A DNA stretch of 64,000 nucleotides from Candidatus Magasanikiibacteriota bacterium (GTDB lineage Bacteria > Patescibacteriota > Patescibacteriia > Magasanikbacterales > GWA2-37-8), in contig JBAYHH010000001.1 in NCBI GenBank assembly GCA_041666265.1, forward strand, positions 8,056 to 72,055. Reading direction: 5' to 3'. The position numbers were made by a program, and so were the translations under genes. Below are positions 4,246 through 57,530 of this stretch, in pieces. Positions within the stretch are counted from its first letter, which is position 1. Each line of letters begins with the position of its first letter. Under the pieces are notes generated by a model, which searched no databases, was not told the DNA's origin, and saw only the letters and a list, made by a program, of their open reading frames with translations.

Positions 4246-4464
4246 TTACCAGAGCTTGGAACACAGCACTTCGGTCGTGCTGGTGGTTGCGCTCCATTCA
4301 GCGGCGATTGGGGAGAGGATGCCCCCCAAAAATCCCACGAAGGCAACCACGAAGGCGATGTTCCCGCCCCATCCCTGGTGAATTTGGAAGGTGGCGCAGT
4401 AACCCCCACCACCGATCAGCATCCCCACGAAGAAAATCGTGAGTAACACCAATAAATTTTTCAT
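4246..4464 (-). CDS. small Gly-rich hydrophobic membrane protein
   Basis: 72-aa ORF with a GGAAGG-like RBS upstream. Two hydrophobic segments with GxxxG-like motifs. Lies in a locally GC-rich patch. Confidence 0.45.
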   Translation of the reverse strand: MKNLLVLLTIFFVGMLIGGGGYCATFQIHQGWGGNIAFVVAFVGFLGGILSPIAAEWSATTSTTEVLCSKLW

Positions 4465-4643
4465 TTTTTCTTCCCTTCCTTTGTGAATTTAGAACCGATT
4501 TTAACCTTAGCATAACTGCATAAAAAAGTCAATGATGGTGGTAGTATGGCAGTTGGACAAATAGTAAACAGTTTTATTATTTGATATTAAAAAATTGAAA
4601 ATTGTTTGAAAAGTAGAAATTGAAAATTAGAAATTTACTGGTT

Positions 4644-6364: not shown

Positions 6365-6479
6365 TACAAAAATACACCCCTAACTTAAATCTCTTCGCTT
6401 TCCTCGGCCGCGAGGCCTCAGGGATGCGCCTGCGGGCGCATAACCCGCTCAGAGAATTCAGTTAGGGGTGTATTTTGTA
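6365..6479 (+). repeat. conserved structured intergenic element, copy 1 (candidate ncRNA / 3'-UTR structure / terminator)
   Basis: Outer stem 6365..6384 / 6461..6479 (TACAAAAATACACCCCTAAC / GTTAGGGGTGTATTTTGTA). Conserved core 6392..6457 contains hairpins CCTCGGCCGCGAGG and ATGCGCC-TGCG-GGCGCAT. Fills the gap between convergent genes. Confidence 0.7.
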
Positions 6480-6885: not shown

Positions 6886-8226
6886 TTAGTAATTTAATTT
6901 CCAGACGCCGTCGCTATCACCATATTTCCCACTGAAATATAAAATATGATTGACGCTATCGGCCTCAAAAGAACGCACCGCAGATTTAATGAGTTCGTCG
7001 GTTACCAAATAATACGGAAAAAGAGCGGTGGTATTTTTATTCCAAGATAATGCCAGAGTGTTGTATTTATCCAATGGGACAACTTGTTTTAGGCCTTCAC
7101 CCGAGCGATTTAAAAGCATCGGCTCGCCCCCTTCGCTGTAAGTGATCAATTCCCATGGCGTCCAAAATAGCCACCAGTTATTATATGGTGAAATTAAATA
7201 ATCATTGGCCGCGATTTTGTATGTTCCTTGCGGAGCGACCAGATACATGAGCGATTGACTGGCGTTTTTTAGTAAAATTTGTCCGCGCGCTCCCGTCACT
7301 ATGGAAAGATTGTTAAAATCGGCCGGCAACACTTCGGTATCAATGATGGAGAGGTCGGATGCAAATCCGGCGGTGTCTTTTACGATGCGCAAATTTTGTG
7401 TGTTCGAAGCGGTTTGCATCGTCCAGAGTGCTCCGCCCTCCATATACCAATCTACATACTTATTAGTTGCCACCCGCGCGCTATTACCGGTGATCGGATT
7501 GAGTGAACGAATTTCCTTTTCAGTGGAATAATATATTATACCGGAGTCATCATCAGACCATTGTATTTTGGTGATCGGCGCGCTCTCTGTCGTTAAATCG
7601 ATTTTTTTGGAAAAATTGTCAGCATCAATAATCATCGCCGTATCAAATGGCGCGACCTTGTCAGTGATCAATAGTCGATGACCTTTTTTTGACCACGCTA
7701 CTGCCAATGATTCGGTTTTTTTGTCGGAAAAAATTTTCGTCATCGAATTATTTTGAGTGTTAAAAATCATCACCTGGCGGCCATTCACTCCGGCAAGAAG
7801 CGCGCTGTCAGATGATAAATACAGATCATCGACAGTCGTCGTAGTAATAATTTGCGGATTATTTTTTTTCAAAAGTCCGATTTCTTTGATATAAACCGTT
7901 TGTTTATTTTGAACCTCGATGTCTTTGTTCCAATCATAATATCCGGACGCGGAAATTTTGAGATGATATTTGCGCGGAGTGATGTTGTTGAGGCGAATGG
8001 GCATGCCGGATTTGATTTCCACCCCGCCCAAATTGGCGTTAGCGTCGATCGGCTCGACATCGATGCTCACGGCTCCAATCTCGCGTCGGCGGCCATTTTG
8101 CCAATCATAGCGATAGCCTTGAGTATACATGACGATGAGCGGCGAAATGATAAAAAAAGAGGCGATGAATAGGCCTAAAATCGCTCGCCGAATCGGACGG
8201 GTTAATCTGGTATTGGGATATTCCAT
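6886..8226 (-). CDS. membrane-anchored protein with PEGA-like domain and beta-propeller-like repeats (TolB-like)
   Basis: ORF 6886..8361; the upstream extension overlaps the heptad array, so the start at MEYPNT (8224-8226) is preferred. TM segment, PEGA-like stretch (KYHLKISASGYYDW), repetitive beta-rich C-terminus. Confidence 0.5.
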   Translation of the reverse strand: MEYPNTRLTRPIRRAILGLFIASFFIISPLIVMYTQGYRYDWQNGRRREIGAVSIDVEPIDANANLGGVEIKSGMPIRLNNITPRKYHLKISASGYYDWNKDIEVQNKQTVYIKEIGLLKKNNPQIITTTTVDDLYLSSDSALLAGVNGRQVMIFNTQNNSMTKIFSDKKTESLAVAWSKKGHRLLITDKVAPFDTAMIIDADNFSKKIDLTTESAPITKIQWSDDDSGIIYYSTEKEIRSLNPITGNSARVATNKYVDWYMEGGALWTMQTASNTQNLRIVKDTAGFASDLSIIDTEVLPADFNNLSIVTGARGQILLKNASQSLMYLVAPQGTYKIAANDYLISPYNNWWLFWTPWELITYSEGGEPMLLNRSGEGLKQVVPLDKYNTLALSWNKNTTALFPYYLVTDELIKSAVRSFEADSVNHILYFSGKYGDSDGVWKLNY

Positions 8227-8230
8227 TTTG

Positions 8231-8384
8231 GGTATTAGGTGAGAGGTTAAAGGTGTTAGGCGCGAATGGTTGCCAATCACTGATTTATGTAGTATAATCA
8301 TACTATCTAAAAAAATGGTAATTGTCAAAGATGATTCCGCCATTTTTGGTATTTTTACCAATACCTTTCACCTAATACCTACAA
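8231..8384. repeat. inverted pair of AGGT heptad arrays (locus 1) in the divergent region upstream of murA
   Basis: Left array 8231..8260 GGTATTAGGTGAGAGGTTAAAGGTGTTAGG. Right array 8359..8384 is its approximate reverse complement (CCAATACCTTTCACCTAATACCTACA). Confidence 0.55.
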
Positions 8385-8392
8385 GCTAAGAT

Positions 8393-9703: not shown

Positions 9704-9800
9704 TTTTGAATTTCGAATTTTAAGTTATTTTTGGATATTTGTTATTTGAAATTTATTTGGAATTTGTAATTTTGAATTTGAGATTTAAATTAATGTTTTT

Positions 9801-11148: not shown

Positions 11149-12201
11149 ATGTCAACACCTGAAGCGGCGTATAATGAAATGATAGCCGAAAAAGCCAAAA
11201 TCGAAGAGGAAAAGAAAAAAAAGAGAGACGCCAAGTTGGCGCGAAGAGATGAAATCAATAAATTGTTGGGGACAAAAGAAAGTGAATTAAACAGGACCAA
11301 TGATTATGTGAACAAGGCCACTGATTTGTTGTCTGAAAAACCAGACGCAACAGATAAAATGAAGCAGAATGAGTCTGTGCTTCGAAGTTCGGTTGTACAA
11401 GGCGCCGAAGAGTGGACAAAGTTGAGAGAAGAATTAGCAACGATCGAATCTGATCCCGCGATAATTCAATATTTAGCCGAACAAAAACAACACTCTCAAG
11501 TAGTAGCCGAACACAAGGCTAAAATCGAAAAGGACTTGGCGGAAAAAGTGGCTGCCCAAGAAAAAGTGGTCGAAGACAAAGAGCGCGCGGCAATGGAGAC
11601 GGCCAAACAGCTCTGTGATGTGTGGCAAGAAGATGACGCGGCATTAATGCTGATGCCGGTAGAAGAAGAGAGATATAATTATCTTAGTCACCCTTATTGG
11701 GAGGGTGTGGAGGAGCGGTATATCGATATTCAAAATAAAATTAATGTACTAAACGCTGAAAAATCAAAGGCATCAGGATTCTTTAAAGGATCTAAATTGA
11801 AAAAGATCGACGCGCAATTGGATGAGCTCGATACGCAATGGAGCAACAATAAAAGTTTGTATGGTCAGAAATTTGCGATTGCCGATCAGCGCCAAAAAAG
11901 AAAGGGAGTTCTTTACGATAAATTAATGGGTGGTTTGTCTTCCCGCGATGAAAAAGCAGCTCCCGATGGATCACTGCGAGCTTATTTGGATGCGTTTACC
12001 GCACTTGAGGGTTTGAAAGGGCGCGATGTACGCAATATCACCGCTATCAAATTGTTGGCTGACTTAACAAAAAACCAAAATAAATTTCCCTTTTTGATAG
12101 TTTATGAAGGTCGCGTGGCTGTCAATTATAATAAACTATTTGAGCAGTTTGGCTATAATCGCCAAGATTCATTGGATAAATTAAAACAGAAACAAGGCTG
12201 A
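11149..12201 (+). CDS. hypothetical coiled-coil protein
   Basis: 350 aa, charged and helical, K/E-rich. No enzymatic motif. Confidence 0.5.
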   Translation: MSTPEAAYNEMIAEKAKIEEEKKKKRDAKLARRDEINKLLGTKESELNRTNDYVNKATDLLSEKPDATDKMKQNESVLRSSVVQGAEEWTKLREELATIESDPAIIQYLAEQKQHSQVVAEHKAKIEKDLAEKVAAQEKVVEDKERAAMETAKQLCDVWQEDDAALMLMPVEEERYNYLSHPYWEGVEERYIDIQNKINVLNAEKSKASGFFKGSKLKKIDAQLDELDTQWSNNKSLYGQKFAIADQRQKRKGVLYDKLMGGLSSRDEKAAPDGSLRAYLDAFTALEGLKGRDVRNITAIKLLADLTKNQNKFPFLIVYEGRVAVNYNKLFEQFGYNRQDSLDKLKQKQG

Positions 12202-12207
12202 AAATTT

Positions 12208-12388
12208 GTTAGGTAATAATTAAAGGTGTTAGGTAAAAGGTATTAGTTGTCAAGTATTAGGTGTTAGGGTAGATGTTAAAAATTCATGAATTTTAAATCA
12301 CCGTTTTAATACGGTGATTTGTTTATAGTTATATTAAAAATTGTCCGTTTCACACCTTCTACTTTCTACCTAATACCTATCACCTTTA
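12208..12388. repeat. inverted pair of AGGT heptad arrays (locus 2) flanking the terminator between convergent genes
   Basis: Left array TTAGGTA ATAATTA AAGGTGT TAGGTAA AAGGTAT TAGTTGT CAAGTAT TAGGTGT TAGGGTA (7-nt period). Right array 12351..12388 is in reverse-complement orientation (CACCTTCTACTTTCTACCTAATACCTATCACCTTTA). Confidence 0.55.
12295..12320. terminator. bidirectional hairpin terminator between convergent genes
   Basis: AAATCACCG-TTTTAATA-CGGTGATTT with T/A runs on both sides. Confidence 0.5.
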
Positions 12389-13243
12389 TTATATTTTCTC
12401 CGCCCAATGTTTATCGGTCTCGACCTCGAGTTTTAAGAATACTTTTTTACCAAGCGCGGCCTCAAATTCTTTGCGTGCCGCGATGCCGATTTCTTTGATC
12501 GCTCGTCCGCCCGCGCCGATGATCATTTTTTTATAACGACTGTCTGCCGTATAGACGGTAGCATAAATTTCAAAGATATCGGATTTTTCTTCGATGCTGT
12601 CCACTTCCACATTGGTGGTGTAAGGGACTTCTTTGCGTAAAGCCAAGAAGATTTTTTCGCGAATTATTTCCGCCACCCAAAATTTATGATCCAAATTGGT
12701 TAATTGCTCCGGCGGATAATTCGGCTCGCCTTCGGGTAGGATCTCAAACACTTTTTTGCGCAATGGTTCGACATGGCGATTTTTGAGCGCGGATAATTCA
12801 TACATCGCCACAAATTCGATTTCCTCGGTCAGCTGTTTGTAGTCATCCAAATACATTTTTTCTTTGGCCGGCAAATCGCACTTGTTGATCACCAAAATTT
12901 TTGGGATTTCGAGTTTGCGCAAGATCGACATCACGAAGCGCTCTTCGGCTCCGATCGGTTTTTCCGGATCCACCACATAGACGATACCGTCGATCTCTTG
13001 GATTGCCTCGCGCGCTTTTTCGGTGAGTTTGCCGGTGAGCGGTCCGGCTTTTTCCTTGAAAATGCCGGGAGTGTCGACAAATACCGCCTGCCCTTCGGCC
13101 GCGTTCAAGACGCCATGGATATTGTGGCGAGTAGTTTGGGGTTTGTCGGTGACGATCGCCAGTTTGGTGCCGACGAGCGTGTTGAGCAGGGTGGACTTGC
13201 CGACATTTGATCGGCCGACAAGGGTAATGAAGCCTGATTTCAT
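12389..13243 (-). CDS. era: GTPase Era
   Basis: G1 motif GRSNVGKSTL, G3 DTPG, G4 NKCD, C-terminal KH domain. Confidence 0.93.
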   Translation of the reverse strand: MKSGFITLVGRSNVGKSTLLNTLVGTKLAIVTDKPQTTRHNIHGVLNAAEGQAVFVDTPGIFKEKAGPLTGKLTEKAREAIQEIDGIVYVVDPEKPIGAEERFVMSILRKLEIPKILVINKCDLPAKEKMYLDDYKQLTEEIEFVAMYELSALKNRHVEPLRKKVFEILPEGEPNYPPEQLTNLDHKFWVAEIIREKIFLALRKEVPYTTNVEVDSIEEKSDIFEIYATVYTADSRYKKMIIGAGGRAIKEIGIAARKEFEAALGKKVFLKLEVETDKHWAEKI

Positions 13244-13372
13244 GAAAAGATATCAAAAATTAAAAATCAAAGATCAAAAATGTCGAATTCGGACACAGTC
13301 TTTAATATTTGATTTATTATTTTTGATATGTTACAATACTACCATAATTAAGCCAATATATCAAGGGTAGGT

Positions 13373-13810: not shown

Positions 13811-13923
13811 TTTTGAATTTATAATTTTGAATTTTGAATAAAATTCGAATTTTTAATTTTTAAAATTCTATATTCAAGTTTTATTCAAAATTAGAAATTT
13901 AAAATTAAATATTTTGTAAATTT

Positions 13924-16646: not shown

Positions 16647-16715
16647 TATTTAATATTATAATTTCTAATATTTATTCAAAATTCAAAATTCGAAATTAAA
16701 TATTATCATTTACCG

Positions 16716-18112: not shown

Positions 18113-19717
18113 ATGTATCATATTTCCCGAATAAAATCAATAATTAGCGTTTTTTTGATGGCGGTGTTTTTGGCACCGGTTTTTGCGCACGCCAAAACAC
18201 CAAACGACCCGCAATACCTCGATCAGTCGGAATTTTACGCGCAAATCAGCGCGCCGGACGCTTGGGATTATGCCACCGGCTCGTCCAAAGTCGTGATCGC
18301 GATCATCGACACCGGTATTGACTCGTGGCACGACGATCTCGCGACCAATGTTTGGGTTAATCCGTATGAAATTTCGGATAATGGCATCGACGACGACGGT
18401 AATGGTTTTATTGACGATATGCACGGTTGGAATTTTGTCGAAAATAACAACAATATTCGGCCGTCGGTTTTTGAAAATATCAATGATCCGGAAGCAGTCA
18501 GACACGGCACGATCGCGGCCGGATTGATCGGGGCGGTGGGCGACAATGGCAAAAATGGCGCCGGTCTCAATTGGCAGGTAAAAATTATGGCTTTGCGCGC
18601 GGTGGACAGCTCAGGGTCGGGTTCATATGATAGTATTTCGCAGGCCGTGGTTTATGCGGTCAAAAATGGTGCGAGCGTGATCAGTATGAGCGTGGTGGGC
18701 GAGGGGTTTGATGAAAATCTGAAAAAAATGATGCGTTGGGCGTATGACCAAGGGGTGGTGCTGGTCGCGGCCGCGGGTAATAATCGCTATGATGGCCGAG
18801 GCGATCTCGACACAAATCCGGTTTATCCGGCGTGTTTTGATAGTGGTGACCAAGAAAATTGGATCATCGGCGTGACAGCGGTCAATAAAAACGATCAATT
18901 AAGCCGATTCGCGGACTATGGTCAGTGCGCGGATATCGCCGCGCCCGGAGAAAAAATATATAGCATCGAACGCTACGCTCCCGACTATGGTTACAAGAAA
19001 AATTTTGGCGGACCCTGGCAGGGGACATCGTTTGCGACTCCGCTCGTGGCCGGTGCCGCCGGGTTGATCAAGTCTCTACATCCCGAATGGTCGGCCGGAA
19101 AAATAATTGAAACGATTTTAAATTTTGGCGATAATATTTCCGCCATCAATCAGAGTCTTGGTATTACCATGCCACCTCGGCTCAATGTCGGCACGGTTGT
19201 GAAGCAAGCATATTATTCGCGTTTGCCGGTCGAAAATATTTCTTATGGACTCACTGGAAATAATATTTGGATGACCACCGGTACCAAAAAAATTGATCTA
19301 ATTACAGTTTTAGACGCGCGTCCGATAAGTTTTGCCACTGAATACTTCACCGACAGTTGGTCGCCAGAATTCGCGGTCTTGATTTCTCGTCCGCCATTTT
19401 TGTATGTACAGTTATACAAAAACAACGGCCGTTACTGGCGCGAATTTTCTTTGCAGAATTCCAAAAACGCGCTTGGACAAAAAATCCTCGTTGGGCGCGA
19501 CCTCGATGGCCGGTCAATTTTGACGATATCTAAATATATCAGAAAAACCAATCAAACCGTGTGGGAAGTGTATGGTATGACCGGTGATTTGCTCCAAAAC
19601 GCCCGCTACAAAGGCGTGGTGAGCGATTGGCAGATGGCCCCCAATTACGCGGGAATCGACGCGAAAATCAAGGTTAAAGGTAAATTGACGACCAAGCGGG
19701 TGGGGTGGTATAATTAG
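18113..19717 (+). CDS. S8 family (subtilisin-like) serine peptidase
   Basis: D/H/S triad motifs (IIDTGID, HGTIAAG, GTSFATPLVAG). Signal peptide. The start could be 18158, because only 20 bp separate it from the divergent gene. Confidence 0.88.
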   Translation: MYHISRIKSIISVFLMAVFLAPVFAHAKTPNDPQYLDQSEFYAQISAPDAWDYATGSSKVVIAIIDTGIDSWHDDLATNVWVNPYEISDNGIDDDGNGFIDDMHGWNFVENNNNIRPSVFENINDPEAVRHGTIAAGLIGAVGDNGKNGAGLNWQVKIMALRAVDSSGSGSYDSISQAVVYAVKNGASVISMSVVGEGFDENLKKMMRWAYDQGVVLVAAAGNNRYDGRGDLDTNPVYPACFDSGDQENWIIGVTAVNKNDQLSRFADYGQCADIAAPGEKIYSIERYAPDYGYKKNFGGPWQGTSFATPLVAGAAGLIKSLHPEWSAGKIIETILNFGDNISAINQSLGITMPPRLNVGTVVKQAYYSRLPVENISYGLTGNNIWMTTGTKKIDLITVLDARPISFATEYFTDSWSPEFAVLISRPPFLYVQLYKNNGRYWREFSLQNSKNALGQKILVGRDLDGRSILTISKYIRKTNQTVWEVYGMTGDLLQNARYKGVVSDWQMAPNYAGIDAKIKVKGKLTTKRVGWYN

Positions 19718-19819
19718 GTCGAAGGTAGAAGGTTGTAGGTATTAGGCAAATACCTGTCGGCTTTTATCTTAGTTTTCAATAATTACGGCTAACACCTTTT
19801 ACCTTTAACCTATCACCTA
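19715..19819. repeat. inverted pair of AGGT heptad arrays (locus 3)
   Basis: Left array TAGGTCG AAGGTAG AAGGTTG TAGGTAT TAGGC. Right array 19790..19819 is in reverse-complement orientation (TAACACCTTTTACCTTTAACCTATCACCTA). Confidence 0.5.
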
Positions 19820-19822
19820 TTT

Positions 19823-20845
19823 ATGGACAATCAAATTTTTGAAAAAAAGAATGTGCTCGTCACCGGCGGAGCGGGATTTATCGGTTCGCATTTGTGCGAG
19901 CGGTTGCTCAAAGAAGCCAAGGTCATTTGTATCGATGATTTTTCTAATTCTCTTCCGCAAAACATTAACCACTTACTGCAATATCCGGATTTTGAATTTA
20001 TAAATTTCGACATTAACAAACCGATTGATTTGGAAAAATTTGTCGAGCTCGACAAATTTAAATTAAAGTATCAAGGCATTCAAGAAATTTATCATCTCGC
20101 TTGTCCGACCAGTCCCAAAGATTTTGAAAAATCCAAAATGCAAGCGCTGTGGGCGAATTCTTCGTCCATGATCAATACTCTTGATTTGGCTGTCCAATAC
20201 AAAGCGCGTTATGTGTTTACTTCAAGCGCGGTGGTTTATGGTCCGTCCACTCCGGCCAAAGCGGTATTCAAAGAAACCGATCTCGGGACTTTCAATCATT
20301 TGTCCGAACGCGCGTGTTTTGACGAGGGTAAACGATTTGCCGAGACTTGCGTCGAGACCTACGCGCAGGTGTATGGTATTGACGCCAAGATAGCGCGCGT
20401 GTTTACGACCTATGGCACGCGCATGCGCTTGTTTGAAAAACAATTGATTCCGGATTTTATTATGAGCGCGCTCAATGGCGATGATTTGGTGATTTATGGA
20501 GAAAAAAATTTCGCGACTTCGCTTTGCTATGTCAGCGATGTGGTAGATGGACTGGTGCGTTTGATGTCGGCCGGACCGGAAGTGCGGTTGGTGAATTTGG
20601 GCGGCGATGAATCATTTAAATACAGCGAAGTGGCCGAGATGATTATCAAATTAACCAATTCCAAATCCAAATTAGTATTTGAAAAAGGGATACTGTTTTT
20701 GACGCCCAAAGGAATCCCAAATATTGCCGTGGCCAAAGATGCGCTTGGTTGGATGCCGATTGTGCGAATCAAGGATGGACTCCAACGCGCCATCGATTAT
20801 GTATCGGCCAATAAAGAAGCGCTCGTGATGGCCGCGAAAAAATAA
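19823..20845 (+). CDS. NAD-dependent epimerase/dehydratase (extended SDR; UDP-sugar epimerase or decarboxylase family)
   Basis: Rossmann motif VLVTGGAGFIGSHL. YxxxK downstream. About 340 aa. Confidence 0.85.
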   Translation: MDNQIFEKKNVLVTGGAGFIGSHLCERLLKEAKVICIDDFSNSLPQNINHLLQYPDFEFINFDINKPIDLEKFVELDKFKLKYQGIQEIYHLACPTSPKDFEKSKMQALWANSSSMINTLDLAVQYKARYVFTSSAVVYGPSTPAKAVFKETDLGTFNHLSERACFDEGKRFAETCVETYAQVYGIDAKIARVFTTYGTRMRLFEKQLIPDFIMSALNGDDLVIYGEKNFATSLCYVSDVVDGLVRLMSAGPEVRLVNLGGDESFKYSEVAEMIIKLTNSKSKLVFEKGILFLTPKGIPNIAVAKDALGWMPIVRIKDGLQRAIDYVSANKEALVMAAKK

Positions 20846-21509: not shown

Positions 21510-21615
21510 AAATTATAAATATTAAATTACAAATCCCAAATAAATATCAGATCTCAAATTTTAAAAACGAATCGATTTTGATATTTGTAATTTGAAATTT
21601 TGAATTTAATTTTCT

Positions 21616-23216: not shown

Positions 23217-23322
23217 AAAACCAGCATTACAGATAATCTTTTCGCTTTCCTCGACCGCGAGGTCTCGGGGATGGTCCTGTGGGACCATAACCCGCTCAAA
23301 GAATATCTGTCATGCTGGTTTT
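23217..23322 (+). repeat. conserved structured intergenic element, copy 2
   Basis: Outer stem AAAACCAGCATTACAGATA / TATCTGTCATGCTGGTTTT. Core has CCTCGACCGCGAGG and ATGGTCC-TGTG-GGACCAT. Followed by a U-run and a partial duplicate of the right arm (ATATCTGTC at 23332-23340). Confidence 0.7.
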
Positions 23323-23448
23323 TCATTTAAAATATCTGTCCGGCTGTTTTTAAATACACAAAAAATTGGCCTTTGATAATGTATTTTCAGCACTCTACGA
23401 GCGAAGCGAGCTTGGCTGAAAATATATTATCTAAGGCCAATTATTAAA

Positions 23449-25885: not shown

Positions 25886-27697
25886 TTATCTCTTGAGTAC
25901 CGCCAGATAAGTCTCGGCCGGAATATCCACTTTGCCATGCGATTTCATGCGCGCTTTGCCTTTTTTCTGCTTCTGGAGCAATTTCATTTTACGCGTATAA
26001 TCGCCACCCGACATTTTAGCGAGAACATCTTTGCGCAAGGCCGATAGGTGTTCGGAAGCGATAATTTTTCCACCCACTGATGCTTGTAATTTTACCATAA
26101 ATTGCTGTTTTGGTAAACTCTCTTTGAGCGATTCGACGATTTTTTTGCCAGTCTTAAACGCTTCGTCTCGCCAAACCAAAGTCGACAATTCTTCCACCAA
26201 ATCCTCCGCCACATAAATATCTAATTTTACCACATCGGTGCTCGCGTAATTCATGTATTCGTAGTTCATCGACGCGTAGCCGCTGGTCACGGTTTTTAGT
26301 TTATCGTAAAAATCCGTCACGAGCGATGCCAATGGAATTTCGTAGTGTAAAAGCGCGCGTTGATCCGCGCCAGCTGACAAATATTCGGTATTCACATATC
26401 GTCCCTGGCGTTCACTGACAAGCGCCATCACATTGCCGACAAAATCCTTGGGGGTGATAATATCCAATGTCATCCAGGGTTCCTCGATGCTTTTGACGCG
26501 CACCGGATCGGGCATGTTTTGCGCGCTTTTAACGACTAATTGTTCATCGTTGGTCTTGGTAACTTTGTAGGCGACACTCGGCACGGTGATGATGATGTCG
26601 AGATCGTGTTCACGGCGAATGCGCTCTTGAAAAATATCCAAATGCAACATGCCAAGGAATCCGCATCGAAAACCAAACCCGAGAGCATGGGAATGCTCGG
26701 GCTCAAACGACAGCGCCGAGTCGCTTAATTTCAGTTTCTCGATCGCGTCGCGCAAATCCTCGTAGCCGTCTCCTTCTTTGGGAAAAATTCCGGCAAATAC
26801 CATTGATTTTACTTCTTTGTACCCCGGTAATTCGACGCCGGCTGTTCCGCGACTATGCTCTTTGTCGTAATTGGTAATCGTGTCGCCGACGCGGCAGTCG
26901 CGCACATCTTTGAGGCCGGTGACAACATAGCCGATTTCGCCATTATTTATTTGTTCGGTCGGATGAAATTTGGGCGCGTAATATCCCACTTCAAGAGCTT
27001 CGGCCGGGGAGTGGGTGCTCATTAAAAAAATCTTGTCATTTTTTTTGAGTATCCCGTCGGTCACGCGTACTGCCGCCACTACTCCGCGATACTCATCGTA
27101 TGAAGAGTCAAAAATTAAGGCGCGCAAGGGAGCGGAAACATTGTCTTGAGGAGGCGGTACGCGCTCTACGACCGCGCGCAAAATTTCATCCACGCCCGAG
27201 CCGGTCTTGCCCGACGCTAAAATGATTTCGTCTTCCTTGCATCCCAATAAATGAATAATTTCCGCTTTGGTTTTTTCCACATTGGCGATCGGCATGTCGA
27301 TCTTATTGATTACCGGAATGATGGTCAGATTTTGTTCGAGTGCCAGATACAAATTGCCGATTGTCTGAGCCTGCACGCCTTGGGTGGCGTCGACGAGTAA
27401 AATCGCGCCTTCCACAGCCGCGAGCGAGCGCGACACTTCATAGTTAAAATCCACATGGCCGGGAGTGTCGATTAAGTTTAGGGTATAGGTATGAGGTGTA
27501 AGGTTGTAGGTCATGCGAACCGGTGTGAGTTTAATGGTGATTCCGCGTTCGCGTTCGAGATCCATGCTGTCCAACAGTTGCGCCTTCATATCGCGTTTGG
27601 CCACCGTGCCGGTTAATTCCAAAAAACGATCCGCAAGGGTCGATTTGCCGTGGTCGATATGGGCGATAATGCAAAAATTTCTGATTAGAGAATTCAT
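25886..27697 (-). CDS. lepA: elongation factor 4 (LepA)
   Basis: GTP-binding motifs (AHIDHGKST, DTPGHVDF, NKID) and the LepA-specific C-terminal domain. 603 aa. Confidence 0.96.
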   Translation of the reverse strand: MNSLIRNFCIIAHIDHGKSTLADRFLELTGTVAKRDMKAQLLDSMDLERERGITIKLTPVRMTYNLTPHTYTLNLIDTPGHVDFNYEVSRSLAAVEGAILLVDATQGVQAQTIGNLYLALEQNLTIIPVINKIDMPIANVEKTKAEIIHLLGCKEDEIILASGKTGSGVDEILRAVVERVPPPQDNVSAPLRALIFDSSYDEYRGVVAAVRVTDGILKKNDKIFLMSTHSPAEALEVGYYAPKFHPTEQINNGEIGYVVTGLKDVRDCRVGDTITNYDKEHSRGTAGVELPGYKEVKSMVFAGIFPKEGDGYEDLRDAIEKLKLSDSALSFEPEHSHALGFGFRCGFLGMLHLDIFQERIRREHDLDIIITVPSVAYKVTKTNDEQLVVKSAQNMPDPVRVKSIEEPWMTLDIITPKDFVGNVMALVSERQGRYVNTEYLSAGADQRALLHYEIPLASLVTDFYDKLKTVTSGYASMNYEYMNYASTDVVKLDIYVAEDLVEELSTLVWRDEAFKTGKKIVESLKESLPKQQFMVKLQASVGGKIIASEHLSALRKDVLAKMSGGDYTRKMKLLQKQKKGKARMKSHGKVDIPAETYLAVLKR

Positions 27698-35772: not shown

Positions 35773-35834
35773 CTTGGAAATTGATATTTGTGATTTATTT
35801 GGAATTTGTAATTTTGAATTTTTGATTTCGCAAT

Positions 35835-39414: not shown

Positions 39415-39520
39415 GAAGCCGCACAGTCCGATAATCTTTTCGCTTTCCTCGCGCGCGAGCGCTCAGGGATGGTCCTGCGGGACCATAACCCGCTCAAAGA
39501 ATATCAGACTGCGCGGCTTC
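39415..39520 (+). repeat. conserved structured intergenic element, copy 3
   Basis: Outer stem GAAGCCGCACAGTCCGATA / TATCAGACTGCGCGGCTTC. Core has CTCGCGCGCGAG and ATGGTCC-TGCG-GGACCAT. The right arm overlaps the stop codon of the convergent GT4 gene. Confidence 0.7.
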
Positions 39521-40646: not shown

Positions 40647-40686
40647 ACAAAACAACGCTATGTTACAAGCGTTGTTTTGTTGGTCG
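40647..40686 (+). repeat. direct repeat A (attL/attR-like; partial tRNA-Pro 3' end plus downstream hairpin)
   Basis: ACAAAACAACGCTATGTTACAAGCGTTGTTTTGTTGGTCG, identical to 46115..46154. Confidence 0.9.
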
Positions 40687-46114: not shown

Positions 46115-46154
46115 ACAAAACAACGCTATGTTACAAGCGTTGTTTTGTTGGTCG
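46115..46154 (+). repeat. direct repeat B (overlaps the 3' terminus of tRNA-Pro)
   Basis: Identical 40-mer. 46149..46154 are the tRNA 3' end (CGACCA on the minus strand). Confidence 0.9.
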
Positions 46155-46225
46155 GGGTGCCGGGACTTGAACCCGGAATCTCGTGAACCCGAATCACGCG
46201 CCTTAGCCAATTGGGCCACACCCCG
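46149..46225 (-). tRNA. tRNA-Pro (anticodon CGG), CCA encoded
   Basis: Manual cloverleaf. Acceptor CGGGGTG/CACCCCG. U8. D-arm GCCC/GGC with loop containing GG. Anticodon stem CGTGA/TCACG with loop TTCGGGT. T-arm CCGGG-TTCAAGT-CCCGG. Discriminator A then CCA. Confidence 0.85.
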
Positions 46226-51804: not shown

Positions 51805-53274
51805 ATGAAAGTAGAAAAATTATTTAAAGAAATCGCCACTCTGGCCAAACAAGAAAAAACCCCGGTTTATGCCGTGGGTGGTTTTGTGCGTGATCTGCTT
51901 TTGGATTGTGATCAGAAAAAAGATATTGATTTTGTGGTGGAGGGAAGTGGGCTGGCTTTTGCCCGGGCGTTGGATAAGAAATTGAAAGAAGAGGGGAGTT
52001 TGGTGGAGTTTTCGGATTTTGATACTGCTCGTTATGTGATAAGGAGTAAGGAAAAAGGAGTAAGGAGTAACGACAACGACGGCGAAATTGTATTGGAATT
52101 TGCGGGCGCGCGCGCGGAAAGTTACCACGACAAATCACGCAAACCCAAAGTCGTCGCTACCACCCTCAAGGACGATTTATCTCGCCGTGATTTTACCGTC
52201 AATGCGATGGCTTTGCCAGTCGATGCGATTGGCAAAAAAACCTGGAAAAAATTGATAATTGACGAATTTAATGGTCAAGAGGATTTAAAAAATAAAATTT
52301 TGCGCACCCCGCTGGACCCGGATATTACTTTTTCCGATGATCCGTTGCGGATGTTGAGGGCGATTCGGTTTGCGGCGCAACTCAATTTTTCGATTGAACC
52401 CAAAACTTTGGAAGCGATATATCGCAATCGTGAACGAATCAAGATTGTATCGGCGGAACGCGTGCAAGAAGAACTGATGAAATTGATGACGACGAACGCC
52501 CCCGGCAACGGGCTGGTGTTGATGTTTCAAACCCATCTCATGGATTTGGTTTTGCCGGAGGTGTCGGCGCTCGACGGGGTGGAAGAAATCTGGGGACATA
52601 TTCACAAAAATAATTTAATCCACTCCTTTAAAGTAGTTGACAATATCGCTTTGCGTTCGGACAAGCCGCTTTTGCGTTTAGCCGGACTGTTGCACGATAT
52701 TGGCAAAGCCGGCACCAAGAAATTTCTGCCGAAAATCGGTTGGACATTTCACGCGCACGAGCATCTGGGCAAAAAATTAGCGAGCGATTTGATGCGCCGA
52801 TTGCGGTTTCCAATCAGCGATATAAAATATGTCGCCAAACTCGTGCGCTATCATCAGCAACCGATCGCTCTTATGGACGACGGCATCACTGATAGCGCGG
52901 TCAGGAGGCTAATAGTGAACTTGGGCGATCAATTGGAAGATCTGCTGATTCTGGGGGTGTCGGATATTACCACCGGCAATCCGACCAAATTCGCGCGCCG
53001 GCAAAAGAATTACGATTATTTGCGCGCGCGCATCGACGAAGTGATCGAAAAAGATAAATTACGCGCGTTTCAGTCGCCTTTGCGCGGAGACGAGATTATG
53101 ACCCTGGCCGGTCTCAAACCCGGACCGACTGTTGGCAAAATAAAAGAAGCGATTGAAGAGGCGATCCTTGAGGGCGAAATCCCCAATGACTACGAGGCCA
53201 GTAAAAATTATTTTGAAAAAATAAAGGATGAATATTCAAAACAAGCCTTTGATTGGGAAAAATTAACTAAGTAA
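51805..53274 (+). CDS. CCA-adding tRNA nucleotidyltransferase / poly(A) polymerase family protein with HD domain
   Basis: PolyA_pol head (VYAVGGFVRDLLL...DIDFVV). C-terminal HD domain (LLHDIGK). TTG at 51790 is an alternative start. Confidence 0.85.
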   Translation: MKVEKLFKEIATLAKQEKTPVYAVGGFVRDLLLDCDQKKDIDFVVEGSGLAFARALDKKLKEEGSLVEFSDFDTARYVIRSKEKGVRSNDNDGEIVLEFAGARAESYHDKSRKPKVVATTLKDDLSRRDFTVNAMALPVDAIGKKTWKKLIIDEFNGQEDLKNKILRTPLDPDITFSDDPLRMLRAIRFAAQLNFSIEPKTLEAIYRNRERIKIVSAERVQEELMKLMTTNAPGNGLVLMFQTHLMDLVLPEVSALDGVEEIWGHIHKNNLIHSFKVVDNIALRSDKPLLRLAGLLHDIGKAGTKKFLPKIGWTFHAHEHLGKKLASDLMRRLRFPISDIKYVAKLVRYHQQPIALMDDGITDSAVRRLIVNLGDQLEDLLILGVSDITTGNPTKFARRQKNYDYLRARIDEVIEKDKLRAFQSPLRGDEIMTLAGLKPGPTVGKIKEAIEEAILEGEIPNDYEASKNYFEKIKDEYSKQAFDWEKLTK

Positions 53275-56132: not shown

Positions 56133-56232
56133 AAGCCCGAAAGGCCGGAAAGGCTTGAAATGCTCAAAAGGTCACGTCAACAACGTCAAGCTTTTCTAGC
56201 CTTTCCGGCATTTTAAGCCTTTCAAGCCTTCT

Positions 56233-57477: not shown

Positions 57478-57530
57478 AATTTTTAATTTGTAATTTTTAA
57501 TTTTCAAACAATAACCAAATAATTCAATTT

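What the first reader, a model, noticed from the sequence alone, without database searches (positions are those of the whole stretch)
12208..12388. Inverted arrays of a 7-bp periodic AGGT heptamer in three intergenic regions (iteron-like or MITE-like)
At 8231-8384, 12208-12388 and 19715-19819 there are paired arrays, one per strand orientation, built from 4-9 tandem heptamers (T/A)(T/A)AGGT(A/G)(T/A). An example is TTAGGTA-ATAATTA-AAGGTGT-TAGGTAA-AAGGTAT. The 14-mer TTAAAGGTGTTAGG is shared exactly between loci 1 and 2. The arrays face each other across 40-120 bp, like TIRs of a miniature element or like iterons bracketing a regulatory region. At locus 2 they bracket the bidirectional terminator, and at loci 1 and 3 they bracket promoter regions.
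Basis: seen in the sequence. Interest (0 to 1): 0.55.

Follow-up and report, generated by a model that had tools for sequence, protein, structure and literature searches.

The report
Inverted heptamer repeats bracketing gene spacers
Three gene spacers in this Candidatus Magasanikbacteria genome are bracketed by mirror-image runs of a 7-base repeat (AGGT plus three free bases), a new variant of the unexplained heptamer repeats known from Xanthomonas and Nostoc, and relatives show its four-base core is under selection.

Summary
AGGT recurs every 7 bases in paired, opposed arrays at 8230-8387, 12208-12388 and 19715-19819 (10 triple-heptad hits against 0 in shuffles). The iteron and MITE readings fail. 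The window is chromosomal DNA of a Candidatus Magasanikbacteria MAG. At locus 1 the DNA between the arms is the ancestral divergent-promoter region found in array-free relatives. The arrays are a new variant of the G-rich heptanucleotide intergenic repeats described in Xanthomonas and Nostoc. They share the intergenic bias, the rule that the G strand's 5' end abuts the nearest gene (17 convergent pairs, 0 divergent, across phyla), and the convergent pairing. They cannot form G-quadruplexes. Other spacers here and in relatives show the same design with other 7- or 9-base units. At the orthologous S8|epimerase spacer, three lineages with near-saturated synonymous sites each keep 5+5 units. Cores are about 95% conserved, free positions about 50%. 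One lineage carries AGCT in both arms. This points to selection on core-to-core complementarity. My best guess is a bulged hairpin, which at locus 3 lies inside a 5' UTR. A mirrored binding motif is not excluded, and function is untested.

The parts
8230..8264 (+). Locus 1 left arm: GGGTATT AGGTGAG AGGTTAA AGGTGTT AGGCGCG. It starts 4 nt from the start codon (8224-8226, - strand) of the beta-propeller gene, whose mRNA therefore carries ACCU repeats just before its AUG.
8356..8387 (-). Locus 1 right arm. ACCT sits at 8363, 8370 and 8377 on the + strand, with a degenerate AGCT at 8384. It ends 5 nt before the murA ATG (8393).
8270..8328 (.). Locus 1 centre: divergent overlapping promoters, TTGCCA-17-TATAAT on + and TTGACA-17-TAGTAT on -. 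The region is ancestral and present in relatives that lack the arms.
12208..12272 (+). Locus 2 left arm: one out-of-phase unit at 12209, then 7 in-phase units at 12224-12272. It starts 7 nt after the stop of the 350-aa ORF.
12294..12321 (+). Locus 2 centre: terminator-like hairpin AAATCACCG...CGGTGATTT followed by a T-rich tail.
12347..12388 (-). Locus 2 right arm, with ACCT at 12354, 12368, 12375 and 12382 on the + strand. It abuts the era stop codon (12389-12391), so the era mRNA carries AGGU repeats just after its stop.
19685..19714 (+). Promoter TTGACG-18-TGgTATAAT inside the 3' end of the S8 peptidase gene, conserved in relatives. It places both locus 3 arms in the 5' UTR of the epimerase operon (inferred; no transcript data).
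19715..19749 (+). Locus 3 left arm, 5 units: TAGGTCG AAGGTAG AAGGTTG TAGGTAT TAGGCAA. The first TAG is the S8 stop codon.
19787..19819 (-). Locus 3 right arm, 5 units, with ACCT at 19794, 19801, 19808 and 19815 on the + strand. It ends 3 nt before the epimerase ATG (19823).
27480..27514 (+). Unpaired AGGT array inside lepA (gene on the - strand, so the sense strand reads ACCT). It encodes TYNLTPHTYTLN in a hypervariable loop. It may not be part of the same phenomenon.

Best explanation
WHAT IT IS (well supported). These are convergent arrays of a degenerate heptanucleotide repeat: an AGGT core plus three nearly free positions. They are the Magasanikbacteria variant of the G-rich heptameric intergenic repeats known from Xanthomonas (GGGAATC) and Nostoc (GGGGAYT). 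Each array sits at the very edge of a spacer, with the 5' end of its G strand against the neighbouring gene. Two arrays in one spacer are therefore mirror images, and sense RNA reads AGGU just after stop codons and ACCU just before start codons. HOW IT WORKS (inferred). The selected property is that the cores of the two arms match, AGGT against ACCT, unit for unit. The spacer can then fold into a long bulged hairpin of 4-5-bp mini-helices separated by unpaired free positions. At locus 3 both arms probably lie in one 5' UTR. They would make a 5'-terminal stem-loop that leaves about 11 nt before the AUG free. Its most likely role is an mRNA-stability or processing element. At locus 2 the arms enclose the terminator and would pair only in read-through RNA. 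At locus 1 each mRNA carries only an ACCU arm, so any pairing there would have to be in single-stranded DNA, or each arm acts alone as a G-poor leader in an organism that barely uses Shine-Dalgarno sites. The arrays probably arose by slippage-type tandem duplication but are now stable.
For: Class: unit anatomy. Arrays lie in intergenic DNA and abut start or stop codons. All three pairs are convergent. In 120 loci from other phyla there are 14 more convergent pairs and no divergent ones. Arrays lie a median 29 nt from the gene on the 5' side of the G strand against 172 nt on the other side. Stop followed by AGGT-sense occurs 44 times against 15 for ACCT-sense; ACCT-sense followed by a start occurs 14 times against 3. 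The published description gives 28 against 160 nt, independence from ORF orientation, and 70-75 convergent pairs (PMC4692102). Selection: at the orthologous S8|epimerase spacer, the window, L166 and L162 (epimerase 86% aa identity; four-fold sites 37-49% identical) each have 5+5 units. Left-arm cores between window and L166 match at 19/20 positions, against 8/15 for free positions. Matching arms: L162 has AGCT in both arms except the innermost AGGT/ACCT unit. With unit-by-unit pairing, 76% of cells pair against 30-53% when the register is slid, and 8 pairs change on both sides against 0-3. L167 has AAGGAAW/WTTCCTT arms around the terminator at the era 3' end, and L125 has AGGT there. Every spacer uses the same unit in both arms although several units coexist in one genome. 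Folding z-scores run from -3.0 to -6.8. Only 6 of 59 genes have any 4-nt SD-like word upstream.
Against: Matching arms are equally what a mirrored sequence motif would give, so the AGGT-to-AGCT switch does not prove base pairing. Free positions of paired units do not covary: about 19 of 44 match, near chance (hand count). Arms of one locus are no more alike than arms of different loci. Sense and antisense folds are equally stable, so nothing favours RNA over DNA. At locus 1 the arms lie in different transcripts. Spacers of 50-124 nt make DNA cruciforms unlikely (general knowledge). Most relatives lack arrays at these spacers, and L167 lacks them at locus 1, so they are dispensable. The shuffle control is only marginal (26-42 of 500), with three sequences and an alignment I built by register. 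No transcript data exist.
Confidence: 0.5

Rival explanations
1. These are neutral or selfish simple-sequence repeats. Heptamers are the unit most prone to polymerase slippage. The arrays are tolerated expansions, and only their orientation is filtered by selection, for example against SD-like G-rich leaders.
For: Heptanucleotides are the most abundant long SSR class in prokaryotes, and slippage has been proposed as the cause (Mrazek 2007, as summarised in PMC4679880, and PMC4692102). Arrays are absent from most relatives with the same gene order. Many different units occur. No function was found in Xanthomonas or Nostoc.
Against: Unit number (5+5) and cores (19/20) are conserved between lineages whose four-fold sites are only 37-49% identical, while free positions drift at the neutral rate. 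Units within an array differ at free positions but not in the core, which is not the pattern left by recent slippage. Arrays are identical in a second sample.
Confidence: 0.2
2. The arrays are binding sites for a protein that reads heptads. On DNA this could work like the omega repressor of pSM19035, which binds runs of 7-bp heptads in direct and inverted order (my own knowledge). On single-stranded RNA it could be a factor with a footprint of about 7 nt, such as a cold-shock domain or S1, acting on ACCU leaders.
For: A conserved 4-base core at strict 7-base phasing with free spacer positions is typical of a binding register. Orientation is fixed relative to genes. ACCU arrays end 3-5 nt before three start codons of genes with no SD. 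Csp, S1 and CsrA were proposed for TAACTGA repeats. Nostoc reporter data hint at a regulatory effect of heptamer repeats.
Against: At least five different units are used in the same design in one small genome and its relatives. The orthologous spacer in L162 carries AGCT instead. At locus 1 the arrays flank the promoters rather than overlap them. No candidate protein was identified.
Confidence: 0.15
3. The loci are miniature inverted-repeat or foldback transposable elements whose terminal inverted repeats are heptamer arrays.
For: The arms look like terminal inverted repeats. Relatives differ in presence or absence. AAGAT is duplicated on both sides of the locus 1 right-arm insertion, at 8328-8332 and 8388-8392.
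Against: The interior of locus 1 is the ancestral promoter region, so the two arms were added separately at its edges. The interiors of the three loci are of different kinds (promoters, terminator, short spacer). There are no near-identical copies. The arrays are orthologous and have diverged unit by unit in three lineages. No transposase family appears among the precomputed Pfam hits of the called genes.
Confidence: 0.04
4. The arrays are G-quadruplex-forming regulatory repeats, as proposed for the Xanthomonas and Nostoc heptamers.
For: They share the position and polarity of the G4-forming repeats.
Against: The core has only GG, and almost no GGG runs occur in the arrays. Canonical three-tetrad G4 is therefore impossible. 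The shared polarity in a unit that cannot form G4 argues instead that G4 is not what sets the polarity.
Confidence: 0.03

Closest known systems
G-rich heptameric intergenic repeats of Xanthomonas (GGGAATC / GGGANTN) and Nostoc (GGGGAYT), Rehm et al. 2015, PMC4692102
   Same: Both are tandem heptamers with a conserved core and free positions. Both are about 90% intergenic. In both, the array is close (28 nt there, 29 nt here) to the ORF on the 5' side of the G strand, whatever that ORF's orientation. Both overlap stop codons, form frequent convergent pairs able to make stem-loops, often have four or so units, and have no known function.
   Different: The core here is AGGT and cannot form G4. 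The organism is a Patescibacteria member with a very small genome. Unit number is conserved between diverged lineages here, whereas length varies widely between Xcc and Xac. Several unrelated units share the same design.
TAACTGA direct repeats of marine Beggiatoaceae, Cyanobacteria and Bacteroidetes (MacGregor 2015, PMC4679880)
   Same: Both are heptamer arrays ending a few nt upstream of start codons of genes that lack Shine-Dalgarno sites. Both occur in organisms with low SD use. A post-transcriptional role has been proposed.
   Different: TAACTGA repeats are near-perfect copies, almost always direct (169 direct sets, 1 inverted), and lie on the leader side only. The arrays here are degenerate, paired, and also follow stop codons.
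Cyanobacterial short tandemly repeated repetitive (STRR) heptamers (Calothrix/Anabaena; cited in PMC4692102; details from my own knowledge)
   Same: Both are intergenic tandem heptamers of several sequence types within one genome.
   Different: STRR arrays are usually long and near-perfect. Paired convergent arrangement and core-only conservation have not been described for them, as far as I know.
REP/BIME and REPIN elements of proteobacteria (REPIN paper PMC3116915 seen; properties from my own knowledge)
   Same: Both are intergenic inverted pairs that fold into long hairpins in mRNA and are thought to act on mRNA stability or termination.
   Different: Each REP unit is itself an imperfect palindrome with a GTAG head, dispersed as near-identical copies and mobilised by a RAYT transposase. 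Here the arms are tandem heptamers, are not self-palindromic, and are not near-identical copies.
Omega-repressor heptad operators of plasmid pSM19035 (my own knowledge)
   Same: Both have contiguous 7-bp units in direct and inverted orientation, with a conserved core in each unit.
   Different: Omega heptads use one word (WATCACW), overlap promoters and have a cognate ribbon-helix-helix protein. Here there are several words, the arrays flank promoters or terminators, and no protein is known.

Membership tests
G-rich heptameric intergenic SSRs (Xanthomonas/Nostoc type) | Tandem 7-nt units with conserved core positions, heterogeneous at the others | tested here: met
   A32 G30 G30 T27 of 36 units, then R-W-W. 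TRF reports period 7.
G-rich heptameric intergenic SSRs (Xanthomonas/Nostoc type) | Strong intergenic bias | tested here: met
   6 of 7 arrays in the window are intergenic. 99 of 112 arrays in loci from other genomes are intergenic.
G-rich heptameric intergenic SSRs (Xanthomonas/Nostoc type) | Array lies next to the ORF on the 5' side of the G strand, irrespective of ORF orientation | tested here: met
   All 6 arms in the window follow the rule. Median distances are 29 against 172 nt, with 72 arrays nearer the 5'-side gene against 22. Counts at stops are 44 against 15, and at starts 14 against 3.
G-rich heptameric intergenic SSRs (Xanthomonas/Nostoc type) | Frequent convergent inverted pairs | tested here: met
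   3 of 3 loci in the window. 17 convergent and 0 divergent pairs overall.
G-rich heptameric intergenic SSRs (Xanthomonas/Nostoc type) | G-tracts of 3 or more able to form G-quadruplexes | tested here: not met
   The core is AGGT with GG only.
G-rich heptameric intergenic SSRs (Xanthomonas/Nostoc type) | Extensive length variation between related genomes | tested here: not met
   5+5 units at locus 3 in three lineages. Arrays are identical in a second sample. Presence or absence does vary among more distant relatives.
Iterons | 17-22-bp direct repeats at a replication origin next to a rep gene | tested here: not met
   Units are 7 bp and inverted, at three separate spacers among murA, era, L9, pyrG and lepA. 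No Rep family appears among the precomputed Pfam hits of the called genes.
MITE / foldback element | Copies share a homologous interior and insert as one unit | tested here: not met
   The locus 1 interior is the ancestral promoter region of array-free relatives. The three interiors differ in kind.
MITE / foldback element | Target-site duplication | tested here: inconclusive
   AAGAT flanks only the right-arm insertion of locus 1. Nothing comparable was seen elsewhere.
REP/BIME/REPIN | Each unit is an imperfect palindrome with a GTAG head; near-identical dispersed copies; RAYT transposase | tested here: not met
   Arms are tandem heptamers and not self-palindromic. Copies are not near-identical. 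The rest of the genome was not searched for a RAYT.
Omega-type heptad operators | One heptad word bound by a cognate ribbon-helix-helix protein, overlapping promoters | tested here: not met
   Several words are in use. The arrays flank the promoters rather than overlap them. The protein part was not tested.
TAACTGA-type leader repeats | Heptamer array ending a few nt before start codons of SD-less genes | tested here: met
   ACCT arms end 3-5 nt before the starts of murA, the epimerase gene and the beta-propeller gene. None of these has an SD-like word upstream.
Known RNA families (Rfam 15) | Match to a curated covariance model | tested here: not met
   Only one tRNA reaches gathering score in the window. 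Only chance-level hits appear at locus 1.

The most novel reading that the evidence does not exclude
Heptad arrays could be a general gene-boundary punctuation system in bacteria that make little use of Shine-Dalgarno sites. Any RNA entering a gene, sense or antisense, would carry a C-rich, G-poor heptad array, and any RNA leaving a gene would carry its G-rich complement. The 7-nt register would match the footprint of an abundant single-strand binder such as a cold-shock domain or S1. The two arms would pair only in RNAs that cross a whole spacer, marking read-through transcripts for processing. The unit sequence would be free to change provided both arms change together.
Probability: 0.1. Interest if true: 0.8.

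Novelty: new variant of a known kind. Interest (0 to 1): 0.5.

Why it matters
Heptanucleotide repeats are the commonest long simple repeats in bacterial genomes. Their strict orientation relative to genes was described in 2015, yet their function is still unknown, and the leading idea (G-quadruplexes) rests on the G-rich examples. This locus gives a non-G4 unit that obeys the same rules, which argues that G4 formation is not what sets the polarity. It also supplies a comparative series: the same spacer in three diverged lineages, with AGGT in two and AGCT in one. That series turns 'is it the word or the pairing?' into a direct mutational test. It also shows that a genome-reduced, nearly SD-less Patescibacteria lineage spends 100-190 bp per spacer on such arrays.

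Tried and rejected
1. Iteron and MITE readings: rejected, as set out above.
2. Shared 14-mer as evidence of copying: given the consensus, I expect about 2 shared heptamer pairs by chance. Matches of 19/21 between arms of different loci are also about what chance predicts (my estimate: about 2.3 expected, 3 seen).
3. Locus-specific covariation of arms within the window: none found.
4. G.U bias or strand asymmetry of folding, to separate RNA from DNA: none found.
5. General G/C asymmetry of gene flanks as the cause of the polarity: none; G equals C both upstream of starts and downstream of stops.
6. Pairing of the 5' and 3' ends of one mRNA: only the murA operon has arrays of this unit at both ends, so this is not general.
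7. Stop codons in all frames as the reason for the polarity: this fails for GGGAATC, which contains no stop in any frame (my own check of that sequence).
8. Rho loading on C-rich arrays: attractive, but cyanobacteria, which show the same polarity, lack Rho as far as I know.
9. Strain polymorphism: L002, L003 and L161 from other samples carry identical arrays.
10. More arrays in the same contig: none in a further 15.8 kb.
11. The lepA array as an insertion: no; the segment is a hypervariable loop of normal length.
12. Rfam: no family matches.
13. Pfam on the lineage-specific 350-aa ORF and two other unknown ORFs: no hits.
15. A DnaK look-up failed and one MurA relative had no DNA available.

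Full report
OBSERVATION. In register, 36 units give A32 G30 G30 T27, followed by R, W, W. AGGTN3AGGTN3AGGT occurs 10 times on both strands against 0.00 in 100 dinucleotide-preserving shuffles. A looser four-heptad score gives 20 windows against a shuffle mean of 0.01. Tandem Repeats Finder calls period 7 at 19716-19741 and 19794-19823. The shared 14-mer is exact at 8247 and 12220. The arms are 22-34 nt, 76-86% complementary and 50-124 nt apart. A fourth, unpaired array lies inside lepA at 27480-27514.

ANATOMY. In all three loci the left arm reads AGGT and the right arm ACCT on the + strand, although the flanking genes are divergent (locus 1), convergent (locus 2) and tandem (locus 3). The arms abut coding sequence.
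- The S8 peptidase stop codon TAG is the first three bases of the locus 3 left arm.
- The locus 2 right arm touches the era stop codon.
- The ACCT arms end 3-5 nt before the start codons of murA, the epimerase gene and the beta-propeller gene.
Sense RNA therefore reads AGGU just after stops and ACCU just before starts.

Locus 1 encloses two overlapping divergent promoters, TTGCCA-17-TATAAT and TTGACA-17-TAGTAT. Locus 2 encloses a terminator-like hairpin at 12294-12321. At locus 3 the promoter TTGACG-18-TGgTATAAT (19685-19714) lies upstream of the left arm, inside the S8 gene. Both arms are therefore predicted to lie in the epimerase 5' UTR. Each spacer folds into one long bulged hairpin, with z-scores of -6.8, -6.2 and -4.1 against shuffles. 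No Rfam family matches.

NOT A SINGLE MOTIF. Many other spacers in the window have strong lag-7 periodicity: 56-65% identity at lag 7 at 9704-9800, 13811-13923, 16647-16715, 21510-21615, 35773-35834 and 57478-57530. These use an AT-rich unit (AATTTGA / TCAAATT), often as opposed arrays. The spacer at 56133-56232 uses a 9-mer (GAAAGGCYK) in the same design, with fold z = -6.3. AGGT is thus one of several units used in one architecture.

WIDER DISTRIBUTION AND POLARITY. The hits came from Cyanobacteria, Bacteroidota, Desulfobacterota, Chloroflexota, Elusimicrobiota, Patescibacteria and other groups. Because the scan was truncated, no distribution can be inferred.
- Within those loci, every AGGT/ACCT pair less than 250 bp apart is convergent: 14 pairs plus the 3 in the window, and none divergent.
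- Oriented as AGGT, 99 of 112 arrays are intergenic. They lie a median 29 nt from the gene on their 5' side and 172 nt from the gene on their 3' side, with 72 nearer the 5'-side gene against 22.
- Using unambiguous stop codons, a stop followed within 40 nt by an AGGT-sense array occurs 44 times against 15 for ACCT-sense (p = 2e-4). ACCT-sense before a start occurs 14 times against 3.
- Other heptamers in the same loci show a weaker form of the rule for their G-rich strand, 65 against 37.

This rule is already published for GGGAATC in Xanthomonas and GGGGAYT in Nostoc. Those repeats are 89-93% intergenic in Xanthomonas. [quoted passage not shown] They overlap stop codons, form 70-75 convergent pairs per Xanthomonas genome, and have no known function (PMC4692102). 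Heptanucleotides are the most abundant long simple repeats in prokaryotes, as stated in PMC4679880 citing Mrazek 2007. TAACTGA repeats sit just upstream of SD-less genes in Beggiatoaceae.

RELATIVES. The LepA of the window is 100% identical to an NCBI protein from a Candidatus Magasanikbacteria MAG. The window is positions 42510-106509 of contig k141_1549520. Thirty-five metagenomic relatives (Era 57-82% identical) keep the gene order GT2-epimerase-S8-transferase-pyrG-L9-era-ctpA-murA-propeller. Almost all lack AGGT arrays. Their murA|propeller spacers are 70-120 bp and carry the same two promoters, so the centre of locus 1 is ancestral and the arms were added at its two edges. Their S8|epimerase spacers can be as short as 39-40 bp. 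The 350-aa ORF beside locus 2 is absent from all of them.

Four closer lineages are informative.
- L166 (epimerase 86% identical) has AGGT arrays at the orthologous S8|epimerase spacer.
- L125 (Era 82%) has an AGGT array directly after the era stop.
- L162 and L167, both from sample ERZ27247350 and so probably one genome, have (AGCTTWT)4-AGGTTTA ... ACCTATA-(AGCTAAW)4 at the S8|epimerase spacer. They have AAGGAAW/WTTCCTT arms around the terminator at the ctpA|era spacer, and no arrays at murA|propeller.
All three S8|epimerase leaders fold into a long hairpin that leaves about 11 nt before the AUG free, with z = -5.6, -3.0 and -4.2.

SELECTION. Four-fold degenerate sites of the adjacent epimerase gene are only 49% (window against L166) and 37% (window against L162) identical. 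Yet each lineage has five units in each arm. Between window and L166, left-arm cores match at 19/20 positions and free positions at 8/15. By my hand count the right arms behave similarly, at about 18/20 for cores. The cores are therefore under constraint, the free positions drift at about the neutral rate, and unit number is stable. This is unlike an ordinary mutable microsatellite.

In L162 the third core base is C in the outer four units of the left arm and three of the four outer units of the right arm. In hairpin terms, G-C pairs have become C-G pairs. When unit i of the left arm is paired with unit i of the right arm, 76% of cells pair, against 30-53% when the register is slid. Eight pairs change on both sides, against 0-3 in the slid controls. 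The shuffle control is only marginal (26-42 of 500), there are only three sequences, and I built the alignment by register.

WHAT THIS DOES AND DOES NOT SHOW. Shown:
- The arrays belong to the known class of G-rich heptameric intergenic repeats.
- They are not iterons, MITEs, G4 motifs or known RNAs.
- Their cores and unit number are conserved.
- The two arms of a spacer always carry the same unit, although several units coexist in one genome.

Inferred: the selected property is core-to-core complementarity, that is, a bulged hairpin. The main support is that so many different units are used, which would otherwise need as many different sequence-specific readers in a genome of roughly 1 Mb.

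Not resolved: matching arms are also what a mirrored binding motif would give.
- Free positions of paired units do not covary (about 19/44, my count).
- Arms of one locus are no more alike than arms of different loci.
- Sense and antisense folds are equally stable.
- At locus 1 the two arms are in different transcripts.

My best reading by locus is as follows. At locus 3 the hairpin is a 5'-terminal stem-loop of the epimerase mRNA. This is the kind of structure known to protect mRNAs from 5'-end-dependent decay in E. coli and B. subtilis (general knowledge). At locus 2 it is an outer stem that forms only in terminator read-through RNA. At locus 1 the arms are G-poor ACCU leaders, in an organism where only 6 of 59 genes have any 4-nt SD-like word upstream.

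WHY THE POLARITY. This remains unexplained. It is not a general G/C asymmetry of gene flanks, and it is not due to stop codons, because GGGAATC contains none. It holds for SD-like units: AGGT here, and TAAGGAG in L125, where CUCCUUA repeats precede the pyrG start. It does not hold for the AT-rich unit. That pattern fits selection against SD-like, G-rich leaders. It does not explain the equally strong preference for G-rich sequence right after stop codons.

NOVELTY AND INTEREST. This is a new variant of a known but unexplained kind. I found no paper linking heptamer repeats with Patescibacteria in the searchable library. Two points go beyond the literature. The polarity holds for a unit that cannot form G4. 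And orthologous arrays keep core, unit number and arm matching across near-saturating divergence, with one concerted core switch. That makes 'word or pairing?' directly testable.

LIMITS. There are no transcript data. Only three lineages are available at the key spacer. Gene boundaries in the multi-genome analysis come from a simple ORF caller. The genome scan was truncated.

Noticed in passing
window 27480-27514 (inside lepA, 25886-27697, - strand): Five in-phase AGGT units on the + strand, so the sense strand reads ACCT. They encode TYNLTPHTYTLN in a hypervariable loop of LepA. The amino-acid pattern lies within family variation (for example TYSLPPTTYTLNL), and the DNA of four relatives shows no such periodicity there. 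The choice between chance, 21-nt slippage and conversion from the arrays is undecided.
   Followed up: partly
window 52040-52070 (inside the CCA-adding enzyme gene, about 51805-53274): TAAGGAG repeated 4.4 times, in frame, encoding IRSKEKGVRSN in a loop. The same unit forms an inverted intergenic pair in relative L125.
   Followed up: partly
window 9704-9800, 13244-13300, 13811-13923, 16647-16715, 21510-21615, 35773-35834, 57478-57530: AT-rich heptamer arrays (AATTTGA / TCAAATT types), often as opposed pairs filling spacers inside operons. Lag-7 identity is 43-65%. The GT2|DUF2304 spacer keeps the same design in L166. The related unit TTTTGAA is reported upstream of genes in Nostoc (bioRxiv 10.1101/2022.06.06.494920).
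   Followed up: partly
window 56133-56232: Opposed arrays of a 9-base unit (GAAAGGCYK / complement) forming a strong hairpin (-40 kcal/mol, z = -6.3) between two + strand genes.
   Followed up: partly
window 6365-6479, 23217-23323, 39415-39520; also L128 at about 4450-4600: A conserved module of about 62 nt (...TCTTTTCGCTTTCCTCG..CGCGAG..CTCRGGGATG...CTGYGGG...CATAACCCGCTCARAGAAT) sits in the loop of long stems whose sequence differs in each copy. All copies are on the + strand between convergent genes. It looks like a three-way junction. No Rfam family matches at E <= 1.
   Followed up: partly
window 11149-12201: A 350-aa, lysine/glutamate-rich ORF between ctpA and era is absent from all 35 syntenic relatives and from L167. 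It has no Pfam match. Its 3' flank is the left arm of locus 2.
   Followed up: partly
whole window (59 gene starts): The organism hardly uses Shine-Dalgarno sites. Only 6 of 59 genes have any 4-nt SD-like word between -22 and -4. The 30 nt upstream of starts are 75% A+T.
   Followed up: partly
window 8328-8332 and 8388-8392: AAGAT is duplicated on both sides of the 55-nt block that carries the locus 1 right arm. Relatives read gtcaaagatATG at this point. This is either a target-site-like duplication or a slippage junction.
   Followed up: partly
window 40651-40674 and 46119-46142 (next to the tRNA at 46152-46225): An identical 24-nt hairpin-forming sequence, AACAACGCTATGTTACAAGCGTTG, occurs twice about 5.5 kb apart, flanking a lower-GC stretch (36-40% GC at 40-46 kb).
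   Followed up: no
L162 11828-11877, 19597-19656; L148 316-373, 1125-1199, 1703-1761, 3576-3644; L140 2313-2443: Relatives carry further heptamer units (CTCCTTA, AAAGTTN, AAGTCTA, CCAAATC, TTGAAAA) in spacers. In L162 the CTCCTTA array follows the lepA stop in the C-rich sense, an exception to the polarity rule.
   Followed up: no
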